64,000 bases of DNA from Candidatus Woesearchaeota archaeon (GCA_017609465.1 JAFCDX010000004.1:1822-65821); one strand, 5' to 3'; shown: positions 13,692 to 28,059, counted from the first letter of the stretch. Notes: generated by a model from the letters alone, not told the origin. A program made the numbers and translations.

Positions 13692-14507
13692 TTACAATTC
13701 ATTAAGAAAATCATAAAGCTTTTCCATATATTCATCATGATATTGCAAATTTCCTTTTTTAGAACTTTCAAGAGTGTATTTTATAAGAGAATCTGCCTTT
13801 TCTCTTTCTTTTTTGTTTAAATTAAGAATATCCCCTGTTATCTCTAATTCCCTTTCAAAACTTAATATCATTTCCAAAGGGATATAAATATCTCCTATAC
13901 TGTTTTTATAATCTGCAATCAAAGGGAAATATTCATATCTGTAATCTTCTGATACTTTTCCATTTTTGACAACTTTGTATTTCAGATAAGAGTCAATTTT
14001 TATTCTTTCATCTTCAATATCATATCCTCTTGCTTCAATATAAAGTTCTCCACTAACTATGTTTCTTTCTATAAAGAATAATTTTCCAATATAATCACAA
14101 AAAGCATTAGCTGATTTTTTATCATTATCACCAACATCTTCATAATTTTTATTTTCAAGCAAGAAAAAGCTGTTAAATATTAATTTTACAAATTCTTCTT
14201 TTTCATAATCCGAATAATTTTCTGGATATTTTAATAAATTTTCAGTTTTGTCTAATCTTTTATCAATTTTCTCCATCAATTCATTTCCATATTCTTTTTC
14301 AAGCATTACTTCTTCAACAACATTATCTAAATTTAATGATTTTTCATATTCTAGTTCGTTTTCAAATACAGTTACAGTGTTTTTTTTAATAACTTCTTCA
14401 TAAGATATTTTTTCTCTTGGTATTTCTATTTTATTCTCATCAGAGGAATTACAACCCATAGCTCCTGCAGCTAATGCACCTGCCAATATCAAACTTAACT
14501 TTTTCAT
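13692..14507 (-). CDS. putative lipoprotein, unknown function (surface operon gene 5)
   Basis: Signal plus lipobox-like 'LAAGAMGCNSS'. 4-nt overlap with the upstream gene. Confidence 0.6.
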   Translation of the reverse strand: MKKLSLILAGALAAGAMGCNSSDENKIEIPREKISYEEVIKKNTVTVFENELEYEKSLNLDNVVEEVMLEKEYGNELMEKIDKRLDKTENLLKYPENYSDYEKEEFVKLIFNSFFLLENKNYEDVGDNDKKSANAFCDYIGKLFFIERNIVSGELYIEARGYDIEDERIKIDSYLKYKVVKNGKVSEDYRYEYFPLIADYKNSIGDIYIPLEMILSFERELEITGDILNLNKKEREKADSLIKYTLESSKKGNLQYHDEYMEKLYDFLNEL

Positions 14508-25306: not shown

Positions 25307-28059
25307 TGTGTATTAATATGTAATCTTGTTTGTAAAGGGGTTGGTTTAAGACCATAGCTTACTCCAGCACCAATATAAGTATTTTCATTTTCAATTTCAC
25401 TTACATCAGAGTAAATTTCTTTGTCATAACCGCCTTCAATTGTAAAGTATAATGAATCCTCTAATCCAATATTATATCTCAATATAACTTTTGTATTTTC
25501 AAAATCTCCTCCAACAGGATATTCCCCATAAATATCAAATCTGTTCTTTTTATTTTGTGTTTCATAAGTTCCTAAAAATCCTATGTTATTGCCCATTATC
25601 TTTTTGTCAGACTCTGTTAAATACTTTTCCATTTGAGATATTCCAATACCCAAATCAAGCCCATTGTCAAAGCTTACCATTGGACCAACATAAACATAAT
25701 ATTCACTGAAACTTTCATCCAAATTATCCTGTTCCAAGTTAAAATTACTATAAGCACCACCTGCATAAAAACCTGCTCTTCCTTTTTGTATATCAAACAA
25801 TGAATGTGACTTTATATCCACCATATAATTGTCAATTTTCATGTTTTCTTCAAATTCAATGTCAAAACCATCAATTTCTATTGTGTTTTCTTTTTCAGTT
25901 CTCAAATATGCTCCATATAAATCAGTATCATTCACAATATTTCCATTAAAATTAAATCCATACATTGTGGTCTTGTCATTGACAGAAAGATCATCTGACC
26001 TCATGTTTCCTTCCTTGTATCCTAGTTCAATTCCAACAAACTGGTCATCTGCTACTTCAAGCATTGCTTCAAGCCTTCCCGCTCTTTGATTTCCATCATA
26101 ACTGTCATCTACAAATTCAGATTTTACATTTGAACTCCTTTCATTATAGAATCCGTTTAAACCAATTCCAAATCTTCTTGATTCCATTGATGATTCTTTT
26201 TCTTCTGTTTTTGTTTCAGATTCTTTCCTGCCTTCAACTCTAAATTCAATAACACCCTCTTCTTTTTCTGAATGTCCCCAATATTTAATGTATATGTTTC
26301 CATCCTTTTCTACAGGATCTTCAATGTCATAATTATCATGCATTCTCTTGAAATTATCAGTAAGCTCTGCCTTTATATCATCACCTTCATCAACTTTCAT
26401 ATAACCTTCTTTAAGAACTTTTCTTGTTTTTCTTTCTGACAATTCTTTTCCATTCCTGAAAATATTAAGAGGTATTAAATTATTAGTTGATATTATTAAT
26501 TTGTCTGGGTCTGCTGCATCCAATTCAGTAAATTCTATTATTTCCAAGTCCTTATCACAGGGAATAAGTACAAAGTTTTCGGATTTTACTCTTTTTGTTT
26601 TTGTGCTTCCATCCCTAAATCTCATTAATTTTTCGACATATTTTGTTTCAAGTGAATCTATGTTATAAACAAAGCTTCTTAATCCATATATTCTGTGAAC
26701 ATCATTCTCTTTTCCTTCAACAGGGAAATGTTCTGGTTCAATACCATCCATTCTGGTTATACTTAAACTAAATTCAGGAATATCTTCTTTTATTTCTCTT
26801 TTTATTTCTCTTTTTCCATTAAATAAATCATCAAGTATTGGTTGTTCTCCTACTGGAGTTTCCTCAATAGTATCTCCATCTATAACTTCTGTTACATTGT
26901 CCCAATCAACTATATCTTCTTCCATTATATCTGATAATGTGCTTCCATCAATAACTTCGGGCATATTTTCTGCAGTGCTTCCACTTATTACATAACTTCC
27001 ATCCATAATACTGGAGCCATCAGTTTCACCAATTTCTAATGGACCCCCTGTTGGATATAATCCTTCAACGCAACCATCTTTTATTATAGGTTCAACTTCT
27101 TTTTCTTCTGCAGGAACTTCAATAACTCCTCCTGTTGGTTTTTCGGTTTTTGAAATTTCTTCTTTATCCCACCCAAAATCATCTCTTTTTTCAGCCCTTT
27201 TTACAACTTCTTCTTCCTGAGCTTCTTCAACATCAACTTTAACTGGTTTTTTAACCTCTTTAGATGGCTTTCCTTTCATGAATGTTTTAAAATCATGATA
27301 TTTTAAATCCATTTTAAGAATTCCATCTTCTACTTCAAATTCATTTACTTCTGTCAATGCAACCTGATACCCCAAACTGTTTTTAGGATTTTTAAAATCA
27401 TAATTATCAACTTCTACAACAGATTTATTATTTTTTATAGCAACAAAGACACTTTCATCTGCCATTCCTTCTTTAGTGTTAAATTGTCCGTCTTTTAATG
27501 AATTATTCTGGTCAAATAATATTCTCGTAACAATATCCCCTTCTGGGACTTTATTATAGTTTATAGTCAATAAATGTGGATTTTCTCCATTAACTTCAAC
27601 GGATTTTATGTAACCGTCCTGTGGTTTTTCTTTCCATCCATCAATATTTGTTTTATTATCAACCCATGGTTTATTTAGAATTTCATCAAGATTTAATTTC
27701 TTTTCAGATACTTTATTTTCAGGCACCTCAAATGCAGTCGGAACTCCATCATCTTTTGGCATTGGTTTTGTTTTCTTTTTAACAACCTGTTCTATAGGTG
27801 CTTTTTCTTTAATATTTTCTACAGAGTTCTTTCCTACAGCATTACCTATGGAATAACCAATAATTCCCCCCATAAACATACTAGTAGCAATAGCTCCTGC
27901 ACCAATCAGTGTATTTGCTTTATTAGAAAACTTTTTTTTATTAAATGGATTGTTTGTATCATACATTTTTTCAGATACTTTGGTTTCTGTAATGTCTTCA
28001 GAAAGCTCGTTCCATTTTCCCATATTTTGTTGTTGGTCATCCATTTTTTTATTATTCAT
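25303..28059 (-). CDS. N-terminally TM-anchored 918-aa protein with beta-barrel-like C-terminal domain (surface operon gene 1)
   Basis: One TM ('LIGAGAIATSMFMGGIIGYSIG') after a ~55-aa N-terminus, then an acidic middle. The last ~295 aa are a run of short amphipathic strands. 4-nt overlap with the giant gene. Confidence 0.7.
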   Translation of the reverse strand: MNNKKMDDQQQNMGKWNELSEDITETKVSEKMYDTNNPFNKKKFSNKANTLIGAGAIATSMFMGGIIGYSIGNAVGKNSVENIKEKAPIEQVVKKKTKPMPKDDGVPTAFEVPENKVSEKKLNLDEILNKPWVDNKTNIDGWKEKPQDGYIKSVEVNGENPHLLTINYNKVPEGDIVTRILFDQNNSLKDGQFNTKEGMADESVFVAIKNNKSVVEVDNYDFKNPKNSLGYQVALTEVNEFEVEDGILKMDLKYHDFKTFMKGKPSKEVKKPVKVDVEEAQEEEVVKRAEKRDDFGWDKEEISKTEKPTGGVIEVPAEEKEVEPIIKDGCVEGLYPTGGPLEIGETDGSSIMDGSYVISGSTAENMPEVIDGSTLSDIMEEDIVDWDNVTEVIDGDTIEETPVGEQPILDDLFNGKREIKREIKEDIPEFSLSITRMDGIEPEHFPVEGKENDVHRIYGLRSFVYNIDSLETKYVEKLMRFRDGSTKTKRVKSENFVLIPCDKDLEIIEFTELDAADPDKLIISTNNLIPLNIFRNGKELSERKTRKVLKEGYMKVDEGDDIKAELTDNFKRMHDNYDIEDPVEKDGNIYIKYWGHSEKEEGVIEFRVEGRKESETKTEEKESSMESRRFGIGLNGFYNERSSNVKSEFVDDSYDGNQRAGRLEAMLEVADDQFVGIELGYKEGNMRSDDLSVNDKTTMYGFNFNGNIVNDTDLYGAYLRTEKENTIEIDGFDIEFEENMKIDNYMVDIKSHSLFDIQKGRAGFYAGGAYSNFNLEQDNLDESFSEYYVYVGPMVSFDNGLDLGIGISQMEKYLTESDKKIMGNNIGFLGTYETQNKKNRFDIYGEYPVGGDFENTKVILRYNIGLEDSLYFTIEGGYDKEIYSDVSEIENENTYIGAGVSYGLKPTPLQTRLHINTQ

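What the first reader, a model, noticed from the sequence alone, without database searches (positions are those of the whole stretch)
13692..28059. Five-gene, translationally coupled surface operon built around a 2773-aa adhesin
All five genes are on the minus strand with overlapping or abutting stop/start codons: 25303-25306, a 34-nt gap, 16042-16057, and 14504-14507. One consensus-like promoter (gagaaagatttatatat) lies upstream of 28059. Gene order:
- a 918-aa TM-anchored protein with a beta-rich C-terminus;
- the 2773-aa mosaic adhesin;
- a 302-aa lipoprotein with a TM hairpin;
- a 517-aa secreted protein;
- a 271-aa lipoprotein.

None of the four partners has a recognisable domain. The operon occupies ~14 kb of a small, streamlined-looking genome. 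In an episymbiotic DPANN-type archaeon this would be a plausible host-attachment apparatus, which is inference.
Basis: inference. Interest (0 to 1): 0.7.

Follow-up and report, generated by a model that had tools for sequence, protein, structure and literature searches.

The report
Archaeal giant adhesin with conserved partner
A tiny symbiont-type (DPANN) archaeon encodes a 2773-residue cell-surface adhesin next to a membrane-anchored partner protein of a previously undescribed family. That gene pair recurs in the few relatives found, but the three further genes of the proposed "five-gene operon" are orphans seen only in this organism and probably have their own promoter.

Summary
The five ORFs, their overlaps and the 34-nt gap are exactly as described. 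The host is archaeal, and its only relatives for this locus are DPANN (Nanoarchaeia) MAGs or metagenome contigs.

The "five-gene apparatus" reading holds only in part.

**Conserved core: two genes.**
- The 918-aa protein has an N-terminal TM helix, long acidic spacers and a ~300-aa all-beta C-terminal domain.
- It lies directly upstream of an orthologous giant adhesin in three other lineages (L002/L005, L008, L009).
- This partner family is very rare: one relative among 1.84 billion representative proteins.

**Downstream trio: not conserved.**
- The 302-, 517- and 271-aa genes have no homologue or domain hit in any search run.
- Different genes occupy those positions after the adhesin in the four relatives where that region is visible (L002, L006, L008, L009).
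- The 34-nt gap holds a consensus archaeal BRE/TATA at leaderless distance from the 302-aa start, so the trio is probably a separate sub-operon.

**Strain variation.** A 99.8%-identical sibling strain has swapped a 1.5-kb membrane-proximal adhesin cassette for an unrelated 2.1-kb one.

**Beta domain.** It has porin-like strand and loop periodicity, but the structure models are unreliable.

**Verdict.** A new variant of a known kind (DPANN giant surface adhesins), of moderate interest.

The parts
28103..28118 (-). Promoter P1 (BRE/TATA, GAAAGATTTATATATA), about 44 nt upstream of the 918-aa start. It implies a short 5' leader.
   Evidence: Highest PWM score in the window, 17.0 bits. The same TATA plus leader start (aaaca/gaTTTATATATA.GAT) lies upstream of the 918-like genes in L002 and L008.
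25303..28059 (-). 918-aa type-II-anchored partner protein: cytoplasmic N-terminus, one TM helix, Lys/Glu-rich spacers and a C-terminal beta-rich domain. NCBI calls it 913 aa, starting at Met6.
   Evidence: ORF. No Pfam, NCBIfam or PDB hit. One distant relative, P0009, among 1.84 billion representatives. Its stop overlaps the adhesin start (ATGA).
27856..27912 (-). Single TM-like segment of the 918-aa protein (aa 50-68), preceded by a Lys-rich stretch (N-in orientation inferred).
   Evidence: Hydropathy scan. P0009 and the L008 975-aa protein also have one N-terminal hydrophobic segment that ends in a GGY motif.
25306..26223 (-). Conserved C-terminal all-beta domain of the 918-aa protein (aa 613-918), with the motif YGEYPVGGDF.
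   Evidence: phmmer match to P0009 at aa 613-911, E 2.7e-9. hhalign to the L008/L009 C-termini scores 33.5-42.7, against shuffled-column controls of 14.1 +/- 2.4 (maximum 21.9). The AF2 secondary structure is all beta hairpins, but pLDDT is only 31. Short turns of 2-3 aa alternate with loops of 7-16 aa.
16985..25306 (-). 2773-aa giant adhesin. Order of parts: signal peptide, conserved N-terminal tip (aa ~37-113), Big_9/cadherin-like repeats (aa ~114-615), PKD/Ig array, LTD (aa 1997-2087), variable cassette, Gly/Ser linker, Cys-rich stalk, TM helix, basic tail.
   Evidence: Pfam PKD_4 2.5e-120, PKD, Big_9, Cadherin_4/5, LTD. Orthologous to the L002 adhesin: 46% identity over aa 1-219, 53% over 114-614, 44% over 2334-2649.
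17445..18919 (-). Strain-variable membrane-proximal cassette of the adhesin (aa ~2130-2620): FN3-like, DUF7507, beta-helix-like Asn/Ser/Thr-rich region and a PKD domain.
   Evidence: In sibling contig L001 (99.7-99.9% identical flanks) this stretch is replaced by an unrelated 2098-bp segment. The replacement encodes Big_7, CarboxypepD_reg and TSP3 domains and splits the gene into 2624 + 351 aa.
16988..17398 (-). Cys-rich stalk, TM helix (aa 2726-2744 = 17075-17131) and Lys/Arg tail: the membrane anchor module.
   Evidence: Hydropathy scan. The same module ends four other secreted proteins of the window (ORFs 52780-53961, 51507-52703, 40803-42515, 42766-43707) and the adhesins of L002 and L006.
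16973..16988 (-). Predicted internal promoter P2 (ATAATATTTATAAATA), in the 34-nt gap and overlapping the adhesin stop codon. It ends 23 nt before the 302-aa ATG (leaderless spacing).
   Evidence: PWM score 11.8 bits. Only 2 of 23 sites scoring at least 11.5 bits in the window lie inside coding DNA. The spacing equals that of the training promoters, 20-28 nt.
16042..16950 (-). 302-aa orphan protein, a putative lipoprotein (signal peptide, Cys26) with a helical hairpin (aa 109-155 = 16486-16626) and a beta-rich C-terminal part.
   Evidence: ORF. No hits. AF2 gives helices 109-130 and 137-155, but pLDDT is 34. Identical in the sibling strain apart from two synonymous SNPs.
14504..16057 (-). 517-aa orphan secreted protein. 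Its likely true start is Met7 at 16039.
   Evidence: ORF. The word search of 5.8 billion protein clusters found only itself. No significant family or PDB hit.
13692..14507 (-). 271-aa orphan protein, a putative lipoprotein (signal peptide, Cys19). Its ATGA overlaps the 517-aa stop.
   Evidence: ORF. No hits. 270/271 identical in the sibling strain.
13674..13689 (-). Promoter-like BRE/TATA of the next gene (RNase P p30, 13127-13654). It marks the 3' boundary of the cluster.
   Evidence: PWM score 10.7 bits, ending about 20 nt before the p30 ATG. p30 identified by Pfam PF01876, E 4e-18.

Best explanation
This is a cell-surface locus of a DPANN (Nanoarchaeia-related) archaeon, and its conserved core is a two-gene module.

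**Gene 1 (918 aa).** It is anchored by one N-terminal TM helix (type II, inferred). It carries a conserved ~300-aa all-beta domain at the far end of about 550 residues of acidic/lysine-rich spacers and two poorly conserved domains.

**Gene 2 (2773 aa).** It is translationally coupled to gene 1 through an ATGA overlap. It is exported by a Sec signal peptide and held by a C-terminal Cys-rich stalk, a TM helix and a basic tail. It displays a long rod of cadherin-like, PKD, LTD and beta-helix-like domains with a conserved N-terminal tip.

**Proposed mechanism (inferred).** Both proteins present their conserved domains distally and are made together from one strong promoter. They act as a pair at the contact surface: the adhesin binds the partner cell or substrate, and the beta domain acts as a co-receptor or docking element. 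The membrane-proximal adhesin cassette is exchanged by recombination between near-identical strains, and the protein accumulates mostly non-synonymous changes. Both are typical of a contact or antigenic surface protein.

**Downstream trio (inferred role).** The genes for the 302-aa lipoprotein with a hairpin, the 517-aa secreted protein and the 271-aa lipoprotein are real, tightly packed genes. They encode envelope proteins found only in this organism, most likely expressed as their own sub-operon from a promoter in the 34-nt gap. They are accessories of this lineage, not parts of a conserved apparatus.

**Shown:** gene structure, domain content, conservation of the pair, absence of the trio in relatives, the strain cassette swap and the promoter motifs.

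**Inferred:** topology, co-function and host attachment.
For: - ORFs and overlaps.
- Adhesin domains.
- The organism is archaeal and related to DPANN.
- P0009 is the only relative of the 918-aa protein among 1.84 billion representatives. Its gene overlaps by 1 nt the start of an orthologous adhesin in MAG GCA_028712455.1.
- L008 and L009 have the same order: a TM-anchored ~975-aa protein with a beta-rich C-terminus, then a small 83-84-aa gene, then the orthologous adhesin.
- The L008/L009 C-termini are remotely homologous to the 918-aa C-terminus. hhalign scores 33.5-42.7, against 14.1 +/- 2.4 for 60 shuffled-column controls and 21.5 for the reversed control.
- The promoter and leader are conserved across lineages.
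- The sibling strain shows the cassette replacement and 13 non-synonymous against 4 synonymous SNPs in the adhesin.
- The trio has no homologues, and the downstream genes differ in relatives.
- The internal promoter in the 34-nt gap.
Against: - There is no experimental or transcript data.
- jackhmmer does not bridge the window/P0009 pair and the L008/L009 pair. That homology rests on a profile-profile score, a short motif, shared architecture and gene position.
- In L008 and L009 an extra small gene and a separate promoter lie between the partner gene and the adhesin. Adjacency is therefore conserved, but translational coupling is not.
- Only four or five lineages are available. The rest of contig JAQTPZ010000006.1 could not be fetched, so trio homologues further downstream in that MAG are not excluded.
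- No oligo-T terminator follows the adhesin, so read-through into the trio, and even into p30, remains possible.
- Neither structure model is usable: pLDDT 31 and 34.
Confidence: 0.55

Rival explanations
1. All five genes form one co-transcribed, dedicated host-attachment apparatus in which the four small proteins are obligatory subunits or assembly factors of the adhesin.
For: The genes are tightly packed on one strand with two ATGA overlaps. All five products are predicted to be envelope proteins. No obvious terminator follows the adhesin. The trio is kept nearly unchanged in the sibling strain, with 3 synonymous and 1 conservative change.
Against: The three downstream genes have no counterparts after the orthologous adhesins of L002, L006, L008 and L009. 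A consensus promoter at leaderless spacing lies in the 34-nt gap. The 517-aa protein is an orphan among 5.8 billion clusters.
Confidence: 0.1
2. A tethered pore. The C-terminal domain of the 918-like family is a 14-16-stranded transmembrane beta-barrel held on a long tether. It inserts into the membrane of the host cell, or into an outer envelope layer, next to the site bound by the adhesin, and so provides a conduit or anchor. In gene order this works like a bacterial two-partner or autotransporter system.
For: - All-beta hairpin prediction.
- Strands of 9-15 residues with one hydrophobic or aromatic face, and strict alternation of 2-3-aa turns with 7-16-aa loops.
- Beta-amphipathic windows are enriched 2-3-fold over shuffles in three of four members.
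- The composition is rich in Gly, Tyr, Asn and Asp, with no Cys.
- The top 26 Foldseek PDB matches of the model are all outer-membrane beta-barrel proteins (OmpC/OmpF-type porins and OmpG), counting one OmpF-based engineered protein.
- The barrel-like gene directly precedes a giant adhesin gene.
Against: - The model has pLDDT 31. The Foldseek matches are not significant (E >= 4e-3, TM 0.15-0.19).
- No OMP family hit even at E = 10.
- Amphipathic strands also occur in soluble beta-sandwiches.
- Several putative strands carry charged residues on the 'hydrophobic' face.
- To my knowledge, no transmembrane beta-barrel protein has been demonstrated in any archaeon, and no insertion machinery is known in archaea.
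- The adhesin needs no outer-membrane transporter, because it has its own signal peptide and TM anchor.
Confidence: 0.13
3. Envelope structure rather than host contact. The giant protein and its partner are structural components of the organism's own cell envelope (an S-layer-like coat or sheath and its anchor). The neighbouring lipoproteins are unrelated envelope proteins that happen to lie downstream.
For: The stalk, TM and basic-tail anchor module is shared with at least four other secreted proteins in the window, which suggests a general envelope-anchoring device. The promoter is strong. Ig/PKD folds are typical of archaeal S-layer and surface proteins (bioRxiv 10.1101/2023.10.27.564410, read).
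Against: S-layer proteins are usually much more widespread and conserved within a clade, whereas this pair is extremely rare. Wholesale cassette swapping between 99.8%-identical strains, which in the sibling even splits the gene, fits a variable contact protein better than a lattice-forming coat.
Confidence: 0.15

Closest known systems
Giant membrane-anchored surface proteins of DPANN archaea (e.g. nanohaloarchaeal 'SPEARE' proteins, SVXNc_0300 and BNXNv_0298; PMC10266531)
   Same: They occur in an ultrasmall DPANN-type archaeon. They have a Sec signal peptide, a very long acidic ectodomain of Ig-like repeats and a C-terminal membrane anchor. They vary between strains, and a role in host contact is proposed.
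   Different: The protein here is 2773 aa rather than 8,800-9,400 aa. It has no cytoplasmic VirB4/TraG-like ATPase domain, only a ~27-aa basic tail, and no VirB4-like gene downstream. Its conserved neighbour is instead an upstream TM-anchored protein with a novel beta domain.
Bacterial giant Ig-like repeat adhesins (Bap/LapA/SiiE type; 'tandem-95 repeat', Big_9/cadherin-like/PKD proteins)
   Same: The same repeat families are present: Big_9, Cadherin_4/5, PKD, and tand_rpt_95 at 84.6 bits. The rod-like modular architecture and domain shuffling are also shared.
   Different: Export and anchoring differ. This protein has a Sec signal peptide and its own C-terminal TM helix in a monoderm archaeon. 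It has no T1SS signal or retention module, no LPXTG motif and no transporter genes nearby.
Two-partner secretion (TpsB Omp85 barrel plus TpsA giant exoprotein) and autotransporter adhesins
   Same: The gene order is the same, with a beta-rich, possibly barrel-like protein encoded directly before a giant adhesin. This is a 'works like' analogy only.
   Different: No POTRA, ShlB or Omp85 hit and no TPS (haemagglutination activity) domain were found. The partner has an N-terminal TM helix. No outer membrane is known in these archaea.
Porin-type outer-membrane beta-barrels (OmpC/OmpF/OmpG)
   Same: The strand length, the alternation of short turns with long loops, and the Gly/Tyr/Asn/Asp-rich, Cys-free composition of the 918-aa C-terminal domain. 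The best, though non-significant, Foldseek matches are porins.
   Different: There is no sequence-family membership. The structural similarity is not significant and comes from a low-confidence model.

Membership tests
Giant Ig-like-repeat surface adhesin (PKD / Big_9 / cadherin-like) | Tandem Ig-like repeat domains above the family thresholds | tested here: met
   PKD_4 393 bits (8 stretches), PKD 220 bits, Big_9 56.6 bits, Cadherin_5 and Cadherin_4 and LTD all above their cut-offs.
Giant Ig-like-repeat surface adhesin (PKD / Big_9 / cadherin-like) | Export signal and cell-surface anchor | tested here: met
   N-terminal hydrophobic segment at aa 20-38 and C-terminal TM at aa 2726-2744 followed by a Lys/Arg tail. 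This is a hydropathy scan only; no dedicated predictor was available.
Giant Ig-like-repeat surface adhesin (PKD / Big_9 / cadherin-like) | Demonstrated adhesion to a cell or substrate | not testable with these tools
   Needs a culture, binding assays or imaging.
Nanohaloarchaeal SPEARE-type giant proteins | C-terminal cytoplasmic VirB4/TraG-like ATPase domain and an adjacent VirB4-like ATPase gene (PMC10266531) | tested here: not met
   No ATPase family hit in the adhesin or in the four partners. The cytoplasmic tail is about 27 residues.
Two-partner secretion system | TpsB with POTRA domains and an Omp85/ShlB barrel; TpsA with an N-terminal TPS domain | tested here: not met
   No such Pfam or NCBIfam hits at E <= 0.01 in the 918-aa protein or the adhesin, and none at E <= 10 in the 918-aa protein or its C-terminal domain.
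Transmembrane beta-barrel (porin-like) proteins | Closed barrel of an even number of amphipathic antiparallel strands, shown by a confident structure or a family match | tested here: inconclusive
   AF2 pLDDT 31.5. The Foldseek top hits are porins, but E >= 4e-3 and TM 0.15-0.19. The strand and loop periodicity and the composition are compatible. No sequence-family hit.
918-like partner family (new, defined here: window 918 aa, P0009, L008 975 aa, L009 partial) | N-terminal TM helix, ~900-1000 aa, conserved C-terminal beta domain with the [YF]GE[YF]P.xGD motif, encoded directly upstream of the orthologous adhesin | tested here: met
   phmmer E 2.7e-9 to P0009. hhalign to L008/L009 scores 33.5-42.7, against shuffled controls with a maximum of 21.9. 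Architecture and gene order. jackhmmer alone does not link the two pairs.
Archaeal lipoproteins (302-aa and 271-aa products) | Signal peptide ending in a lipobox with an invariant Cys | tested here: inconclusive
   Cys26 follows LSSFA and Cys19 follows GAMG, each at the end of a hydrophobic N-terminus. Similar ...AAC / ...AGC N-termini occur in other ORFs of the window and in L008/L009. No lipoprotein predictor was available and no modification data exist.
Single operon (one transcript for five genes) | One promoter, no internal start sites, one terminator | tested here: not met
   A second consensus BRE/TATA lies in the 34-nt gap at leaderless spacing. This is sequence prediction only; transcripts are not testable here.

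The most novel reading that the evidence does not exclude
The 918-like family is a tethered, porin-like transmembrane beta-barrel, which would be the first archaeal one. A DPANN episymbiont would project it on a long acidic tether and insert it into its host's membrane beside the giant adhesin. That would give a molecular candidate for the long-sought nutrient conduit or membrane bridge between DPANN cells and their hosts.
Probability: 0.12. Interest if true: 0.9.

Novelty: new variant of a known kind. Interest (0 to 1): 0.5.

Why it matters
DPANN archaea depend on contact with host cells, yet almost none of the molecules at the contact site are known.

- **A narrower candidate.** This analysis reduces a 14-kb "apparatus" to a conserved two-gene module: a giant adhesin plus a previously undescribed TM-anchored partner with a porin-like beta domain.
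- **Lineage-specific genes.** The three remaining genes are accessories seen only in this organism.
- **Rapid diversification.** Near-identical strains exchange whole adhesin cassettes, which may bear on host range.
- **The high-stakes possibility.** If the beta domain proves to be a membrane-inserting barrel, it would be both an unprecedented archaeal protein class and a candidate host-membrane conduit.
- **The default outcome.** If it does not, the locus is one more example of the known theme of variable giant surface proteins in ultrasmall symbionts.

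Tried and rejected
- **Word-based homologue searches.** Searches with the 918-aa and 517-aa proteins returned only themselves.
- **Exact-product look-ups.** Look-ups of the 918-aa and 271-aa proteins failed. Only the 302-aa protein led to the sibling contig.
- **Genome scan.** The scan with the beta domain found only the same MAG again, as a second assembly (L005 = L002).
- **Viral-contig scans.** Both found nothing.
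- **Structure prediction.**
  - The two models that ran have pLDDT 31 and 34 and are unusable beyond secondary structure.
  - I therefore treat the porin hits from Foldseek as a lead only.
- **OmpA-C lead.** From memory, a segment of the L008 975-aa protein looked like an OmpA-C motif. Pfam gave no hit at E <= 0.01, so I dropped it.
- **SlyB/glycine-zipper lead.** The hairpin of the 302-aa protein suggested a SlyB-like glycine-zipper lipoprotein. There was no Pfam hit even at E = 10, so I dropped that too.
- **Sigma-70 promoter and hairpin-terminator scans.** Both were at or below chance, as expected for an archaeon.
- **Paralogues.** The four partners have none within the window.
- **Rfam.** Nothing was found in the window at gathering thresholds.

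Full report
**1. Observation**

| Product | Coordinates (minus strand) |
|---|---|
| 918 aa | 25303-28059 |
| 2773 aa | 16985-25306 |
| 302 aa | 16042-16950 |
| 517 aa | 14504-16057 |
| 271 aa | 13692-14507 |

- The two ATGA overlaps and the 34-nt gap are real.
- The 16-nt overlap depends on the start chosen for the 517-aa gene. Met7 (ATG at 16039) gives a better signal peptide and a 2-nt spacer.
- The window has about 30% G+C, so stop codons are frequent and ORFs of 271-2773 codons cannot be chance.
- The run continues on the same strand with RNase P p30 (13127-13654) and a tRNA.
- Hydropathy supports the stated topologies.
- The four partners have no hit in Pfam or NCBIfam, even at E = 10, and none in PDB sequences.

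**2. Organism**

- RNase P p30, an archaeal-type kinase and UppS flank the cluster.
- Upstream regions carry an archaeal BRE/TATA consensus (aaaRnTTTATAWA), mostly 20-28 nt before the ATG, so many genes are leaderless.
- The only named genome with related genes is 'Candidatus Nanoarchaeia archaeon STD1_207'. It belongs to Nanobdellota/Nanobdellati, that is DPANN.

**3. The adhesin**

- Pfam finds cadherin-like/Big_9 repeats, a long PKD array, an LTD, an FN3-like domain and a DUF7507 domain.
- The protein starts with a signal peptide and ends in a Gly/Ser linker, a Cys-rich stalk, a TM helix and a Lys/Arg tail.
- That anchor module also ends four other secreted proteins in the window.
- A sibling contig (L001) is 99.7-99.9% identical on both sides but replaces window 17445-18919 with an unrelated 2098-bp segment.
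  - The replaced stretch is adhesin aa ~2130-2620: FN3-like, DUF7507, beta-helix-like region and PKD.
  - The replacement encodes Big_7, CarboxypepD_reg and TSP3 domains. It contains a stop and a new signal peptide, so the gene is split into 2624 + 351 aa.
- Of the 34 SNPs between the two strains, 17 lie in the adhesin: 13 non-synonymous and 4 synonymous.
- The three downstream genes carry 3 synonymous changes and 1 conservative change.
- The adhesin is thus a fast-evolving, recombining surface protein.

**4. The 918-aa partner is conserved with the adhesin**

- A word-index search found only the protein itself.
- The exhaustive HMMER search of 1.84 billion representatives found one relative, P0009 (1004 aa). 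It matches the C-terminal ~300 residues with E 2.7e-9.
- In its MAG, the stop codon of P0009 overlaps the start of a giant adhesin. That adhesin is split only by a 100-N scaffold gap.
- That adhesin is a clear orthologue of the window's:
  - 46% identity over the signal peptide and N-terminal tip.
  - 53% identity over the Big_9 region.
  - 44% identity over the beta-helix-like, PKD and stalk region.
- A metagenome scan with the beta-helix-like region gave four more loci.
- In L008 and L009 the adhesin orthologue is preceded by a small 83-84-aa gene. Before that lies a ~975-aa protein with one N-terminal TM segment and a beta-rich C-terminus.
- Evidence on homology of that protein to the 918-aa protein:
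  - Pairwise and iterative searches do not link it to the 918/P0009 pair.
  - Profile-profile alignment does. The score is 33.5 with the tool's defaults and 42.7 with -M first (E 3e-5, probability 73%).
  - Sixty column-shuffled controls gave 14.1 +/- 2.4 (maximum 21.9), and the reversed profile gave 21.5.
  - A shared [YF]GE[YF]P.xGD motif aligns in all four sequences.
- The promoter and the start of the leader are also alike in the three lineages.
- I conclude that the partner-adhesin pair is a conserved module. In L008 and L009 a separate promoter precedes the small gene, so adjacency is conserved there but coupling is not.

**5. The downstream trio is not conserved**

- The 517-aa protein is an orphan among 5.8 billion clusters.
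- None of the three proteins matches anything in L002, L006, L008 or L009, by tblastn or phmmer.
- The genes after the adhesin differ in each lineage:
  - L002: a 231-aa protein without a signal peptide.
  - L008: a 119-aa protein, toxin-antitoxin genes and an unrelated 176-aa lipoprotein.
  - L009: 112-aa and 128-aa proteins and the homologous 173-aa lipoprotein.
  - L006: a 78-aa protein and a 939-aa PKD protein.
- I built a PWM from 16 other promoters of the window. On the minus strand between 12900 and 28300 only six sites score at least 8 bits:

| Position (5' end on minus strand) | Score (bits) | Location |
|---|---|---|
| 28118 | 17.0 | upstream of the 918-aa gene; best in the window |
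| 28154 | 8.2 | intergenic, upstream of 28118 |
| 25385 | 8.1 | inside the 3' end of the 918-aa gene |
| 16988 | 11.8 | in the 34-nt gap |
| 13689 | 10.7 | upstream of p30 |
| 13137 | 13.5 | upstream of the tRNA |

- The gap site ends 23 nt before the 302-aa ATG, which is the spacing used by leaderless genes here.
- Only 2 of the 23 sites in the window scoring at least 11.5 bits lie inside coding DNA, and coding DNA makes up 86% of the window.
- The trio is therefore best read as its own sub-operon of envelope proteins found only in this organism. Read-through from upstream cannot be excluded, because no terminator is evident.

**6. What the beta domain might be**

- AF2 on the two-sequence alignment gives only pLDDT 31. 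Its secondary structure is a succession of long hairpins.
- On the sequence, turns of 2-3 residues alternate with loops of 7-16 residues. Most strands have one hydrophobic or aromatic face.
- Beta-amphipathic windows are enriched 2-3-fold over shuffles in three of four members, and the domain is rich in Gly, Tyr, Asn and Asp with no Cys.
- The top 26 Foldseek matches of the model are all outer-membrane beta-barrel proteins (OmpC/OmpF-type porins and OmpG), counting one OmpF-based engineered protein. None is significant: E >= 4e-3 and TM 0.15-0.19.
- This is compatible with a transmembrane barrel but equally with a soluble all-beta fold. I keep it as the most novel reading, at about 12% probability.

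**7. Comparison with known systems**

- Giant Ig-like surface proteins are a known feature of DPANN genomes and are generally proposed to mediate host contact (bioRxiv 10.1101/2023.10.27.564410; PMC10266531).
- The nanohaloarchaeal giants differ. They carry a cytoplasmic VirB4-like ATPase domain and have a VirB4-like neighbour, and both are absent here.
- Two-partner secretion is an analogy in gene order only. Its defining domains were tested for and are absent.
- The new elements here are the conserved partner family and the strain-level cassette exchange.

**8. Verdict**

- It is a new variant of a known kind, with interest about 0.5.
- The upside lies entirely in the unresolved fold and function of the partner's beta domain.

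Noticed in passing
window 12994-13098 (-): ARAGORN calls a 71-nt tRNA-Glu(UUC) at 12994-13064, and Rfam finds no tRNA at gathering score. However, 13098-13075 (GCTCCTGTGGTGTAGTCCGGCCAA) looks like a canonical 5' acceptor and D arm whose first 7 nt pair with the 3' end (...CGGGAGCA). This suggests a tRNA with a ~30-nt non-canonical intron in the D-arm region. A 13.5-bit TATA-like site (13122-13137) lies about 25 nt upstream of 13098.
   Followed up: partly
window 16988-17398 (-); also ORFs 52780-53961, 51507-52703, 42766-43707 (-) and 40803-42515 (+): The adhesin's Cys-rich stalk (…C.S.WNCTEWS.C…), TM helix and basic tail form a module shared with at least four other secreted proteins of the window (32-41% identity). 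The adhesins of L002 and L006 also carry it. It looks like a lineage-specific surface-anchoring cassette.
   Followed up: partly
window 10460-10587: Seven of the 34 SNPs that separate the window from the 99.8%-identical sibling contig cluster in this 128-nt intergenic stretch. It lies upstream of a pair of overlapping genes for orphan secreted proteins (9278-10456 and 8508-9281).
   Followed up: no
window 4938-8057 (-): This is an MmeI/Eco57I-like type IIG restriction-modification gene (1039 aa). In the sibling strain codon 390 is a stop (L390*), so the system appears to be inactivated or split there.
   Followed up: no
L001 8911-9966 (+), sibling strain: The alternative cassette creates a separate 351-aa gene with its own signal peptide, a CarboxypepD_reg domain and thrombospondin type-3 repeats. 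This gene inherits the original stalk and TM anchor, while the 2624-aa upstream product loses its anchor.
   Followed up: partly
L008 3811-4065 (+) and L009 1785-2036 (+): A conserved 83-84-aa gene encodes a protein with no signal peptide and no TM segment. It has its own TATA and a strong Shine-Dalgarno-like GAGGGGGG, and it lies between the 918-like gene and the adhesin in these two lineages. It is absent from the window and from L002.
   Followed up: no
window 39650-39985 (+) and 40060-40770 (+); L008 12502-13032 (+): Several further small ORFs start with a signal peptide that ends in ...AAC...GYC or ...AGC. Lipobox-like N-termini therefore seem common in these archaea.
   Followed up: no
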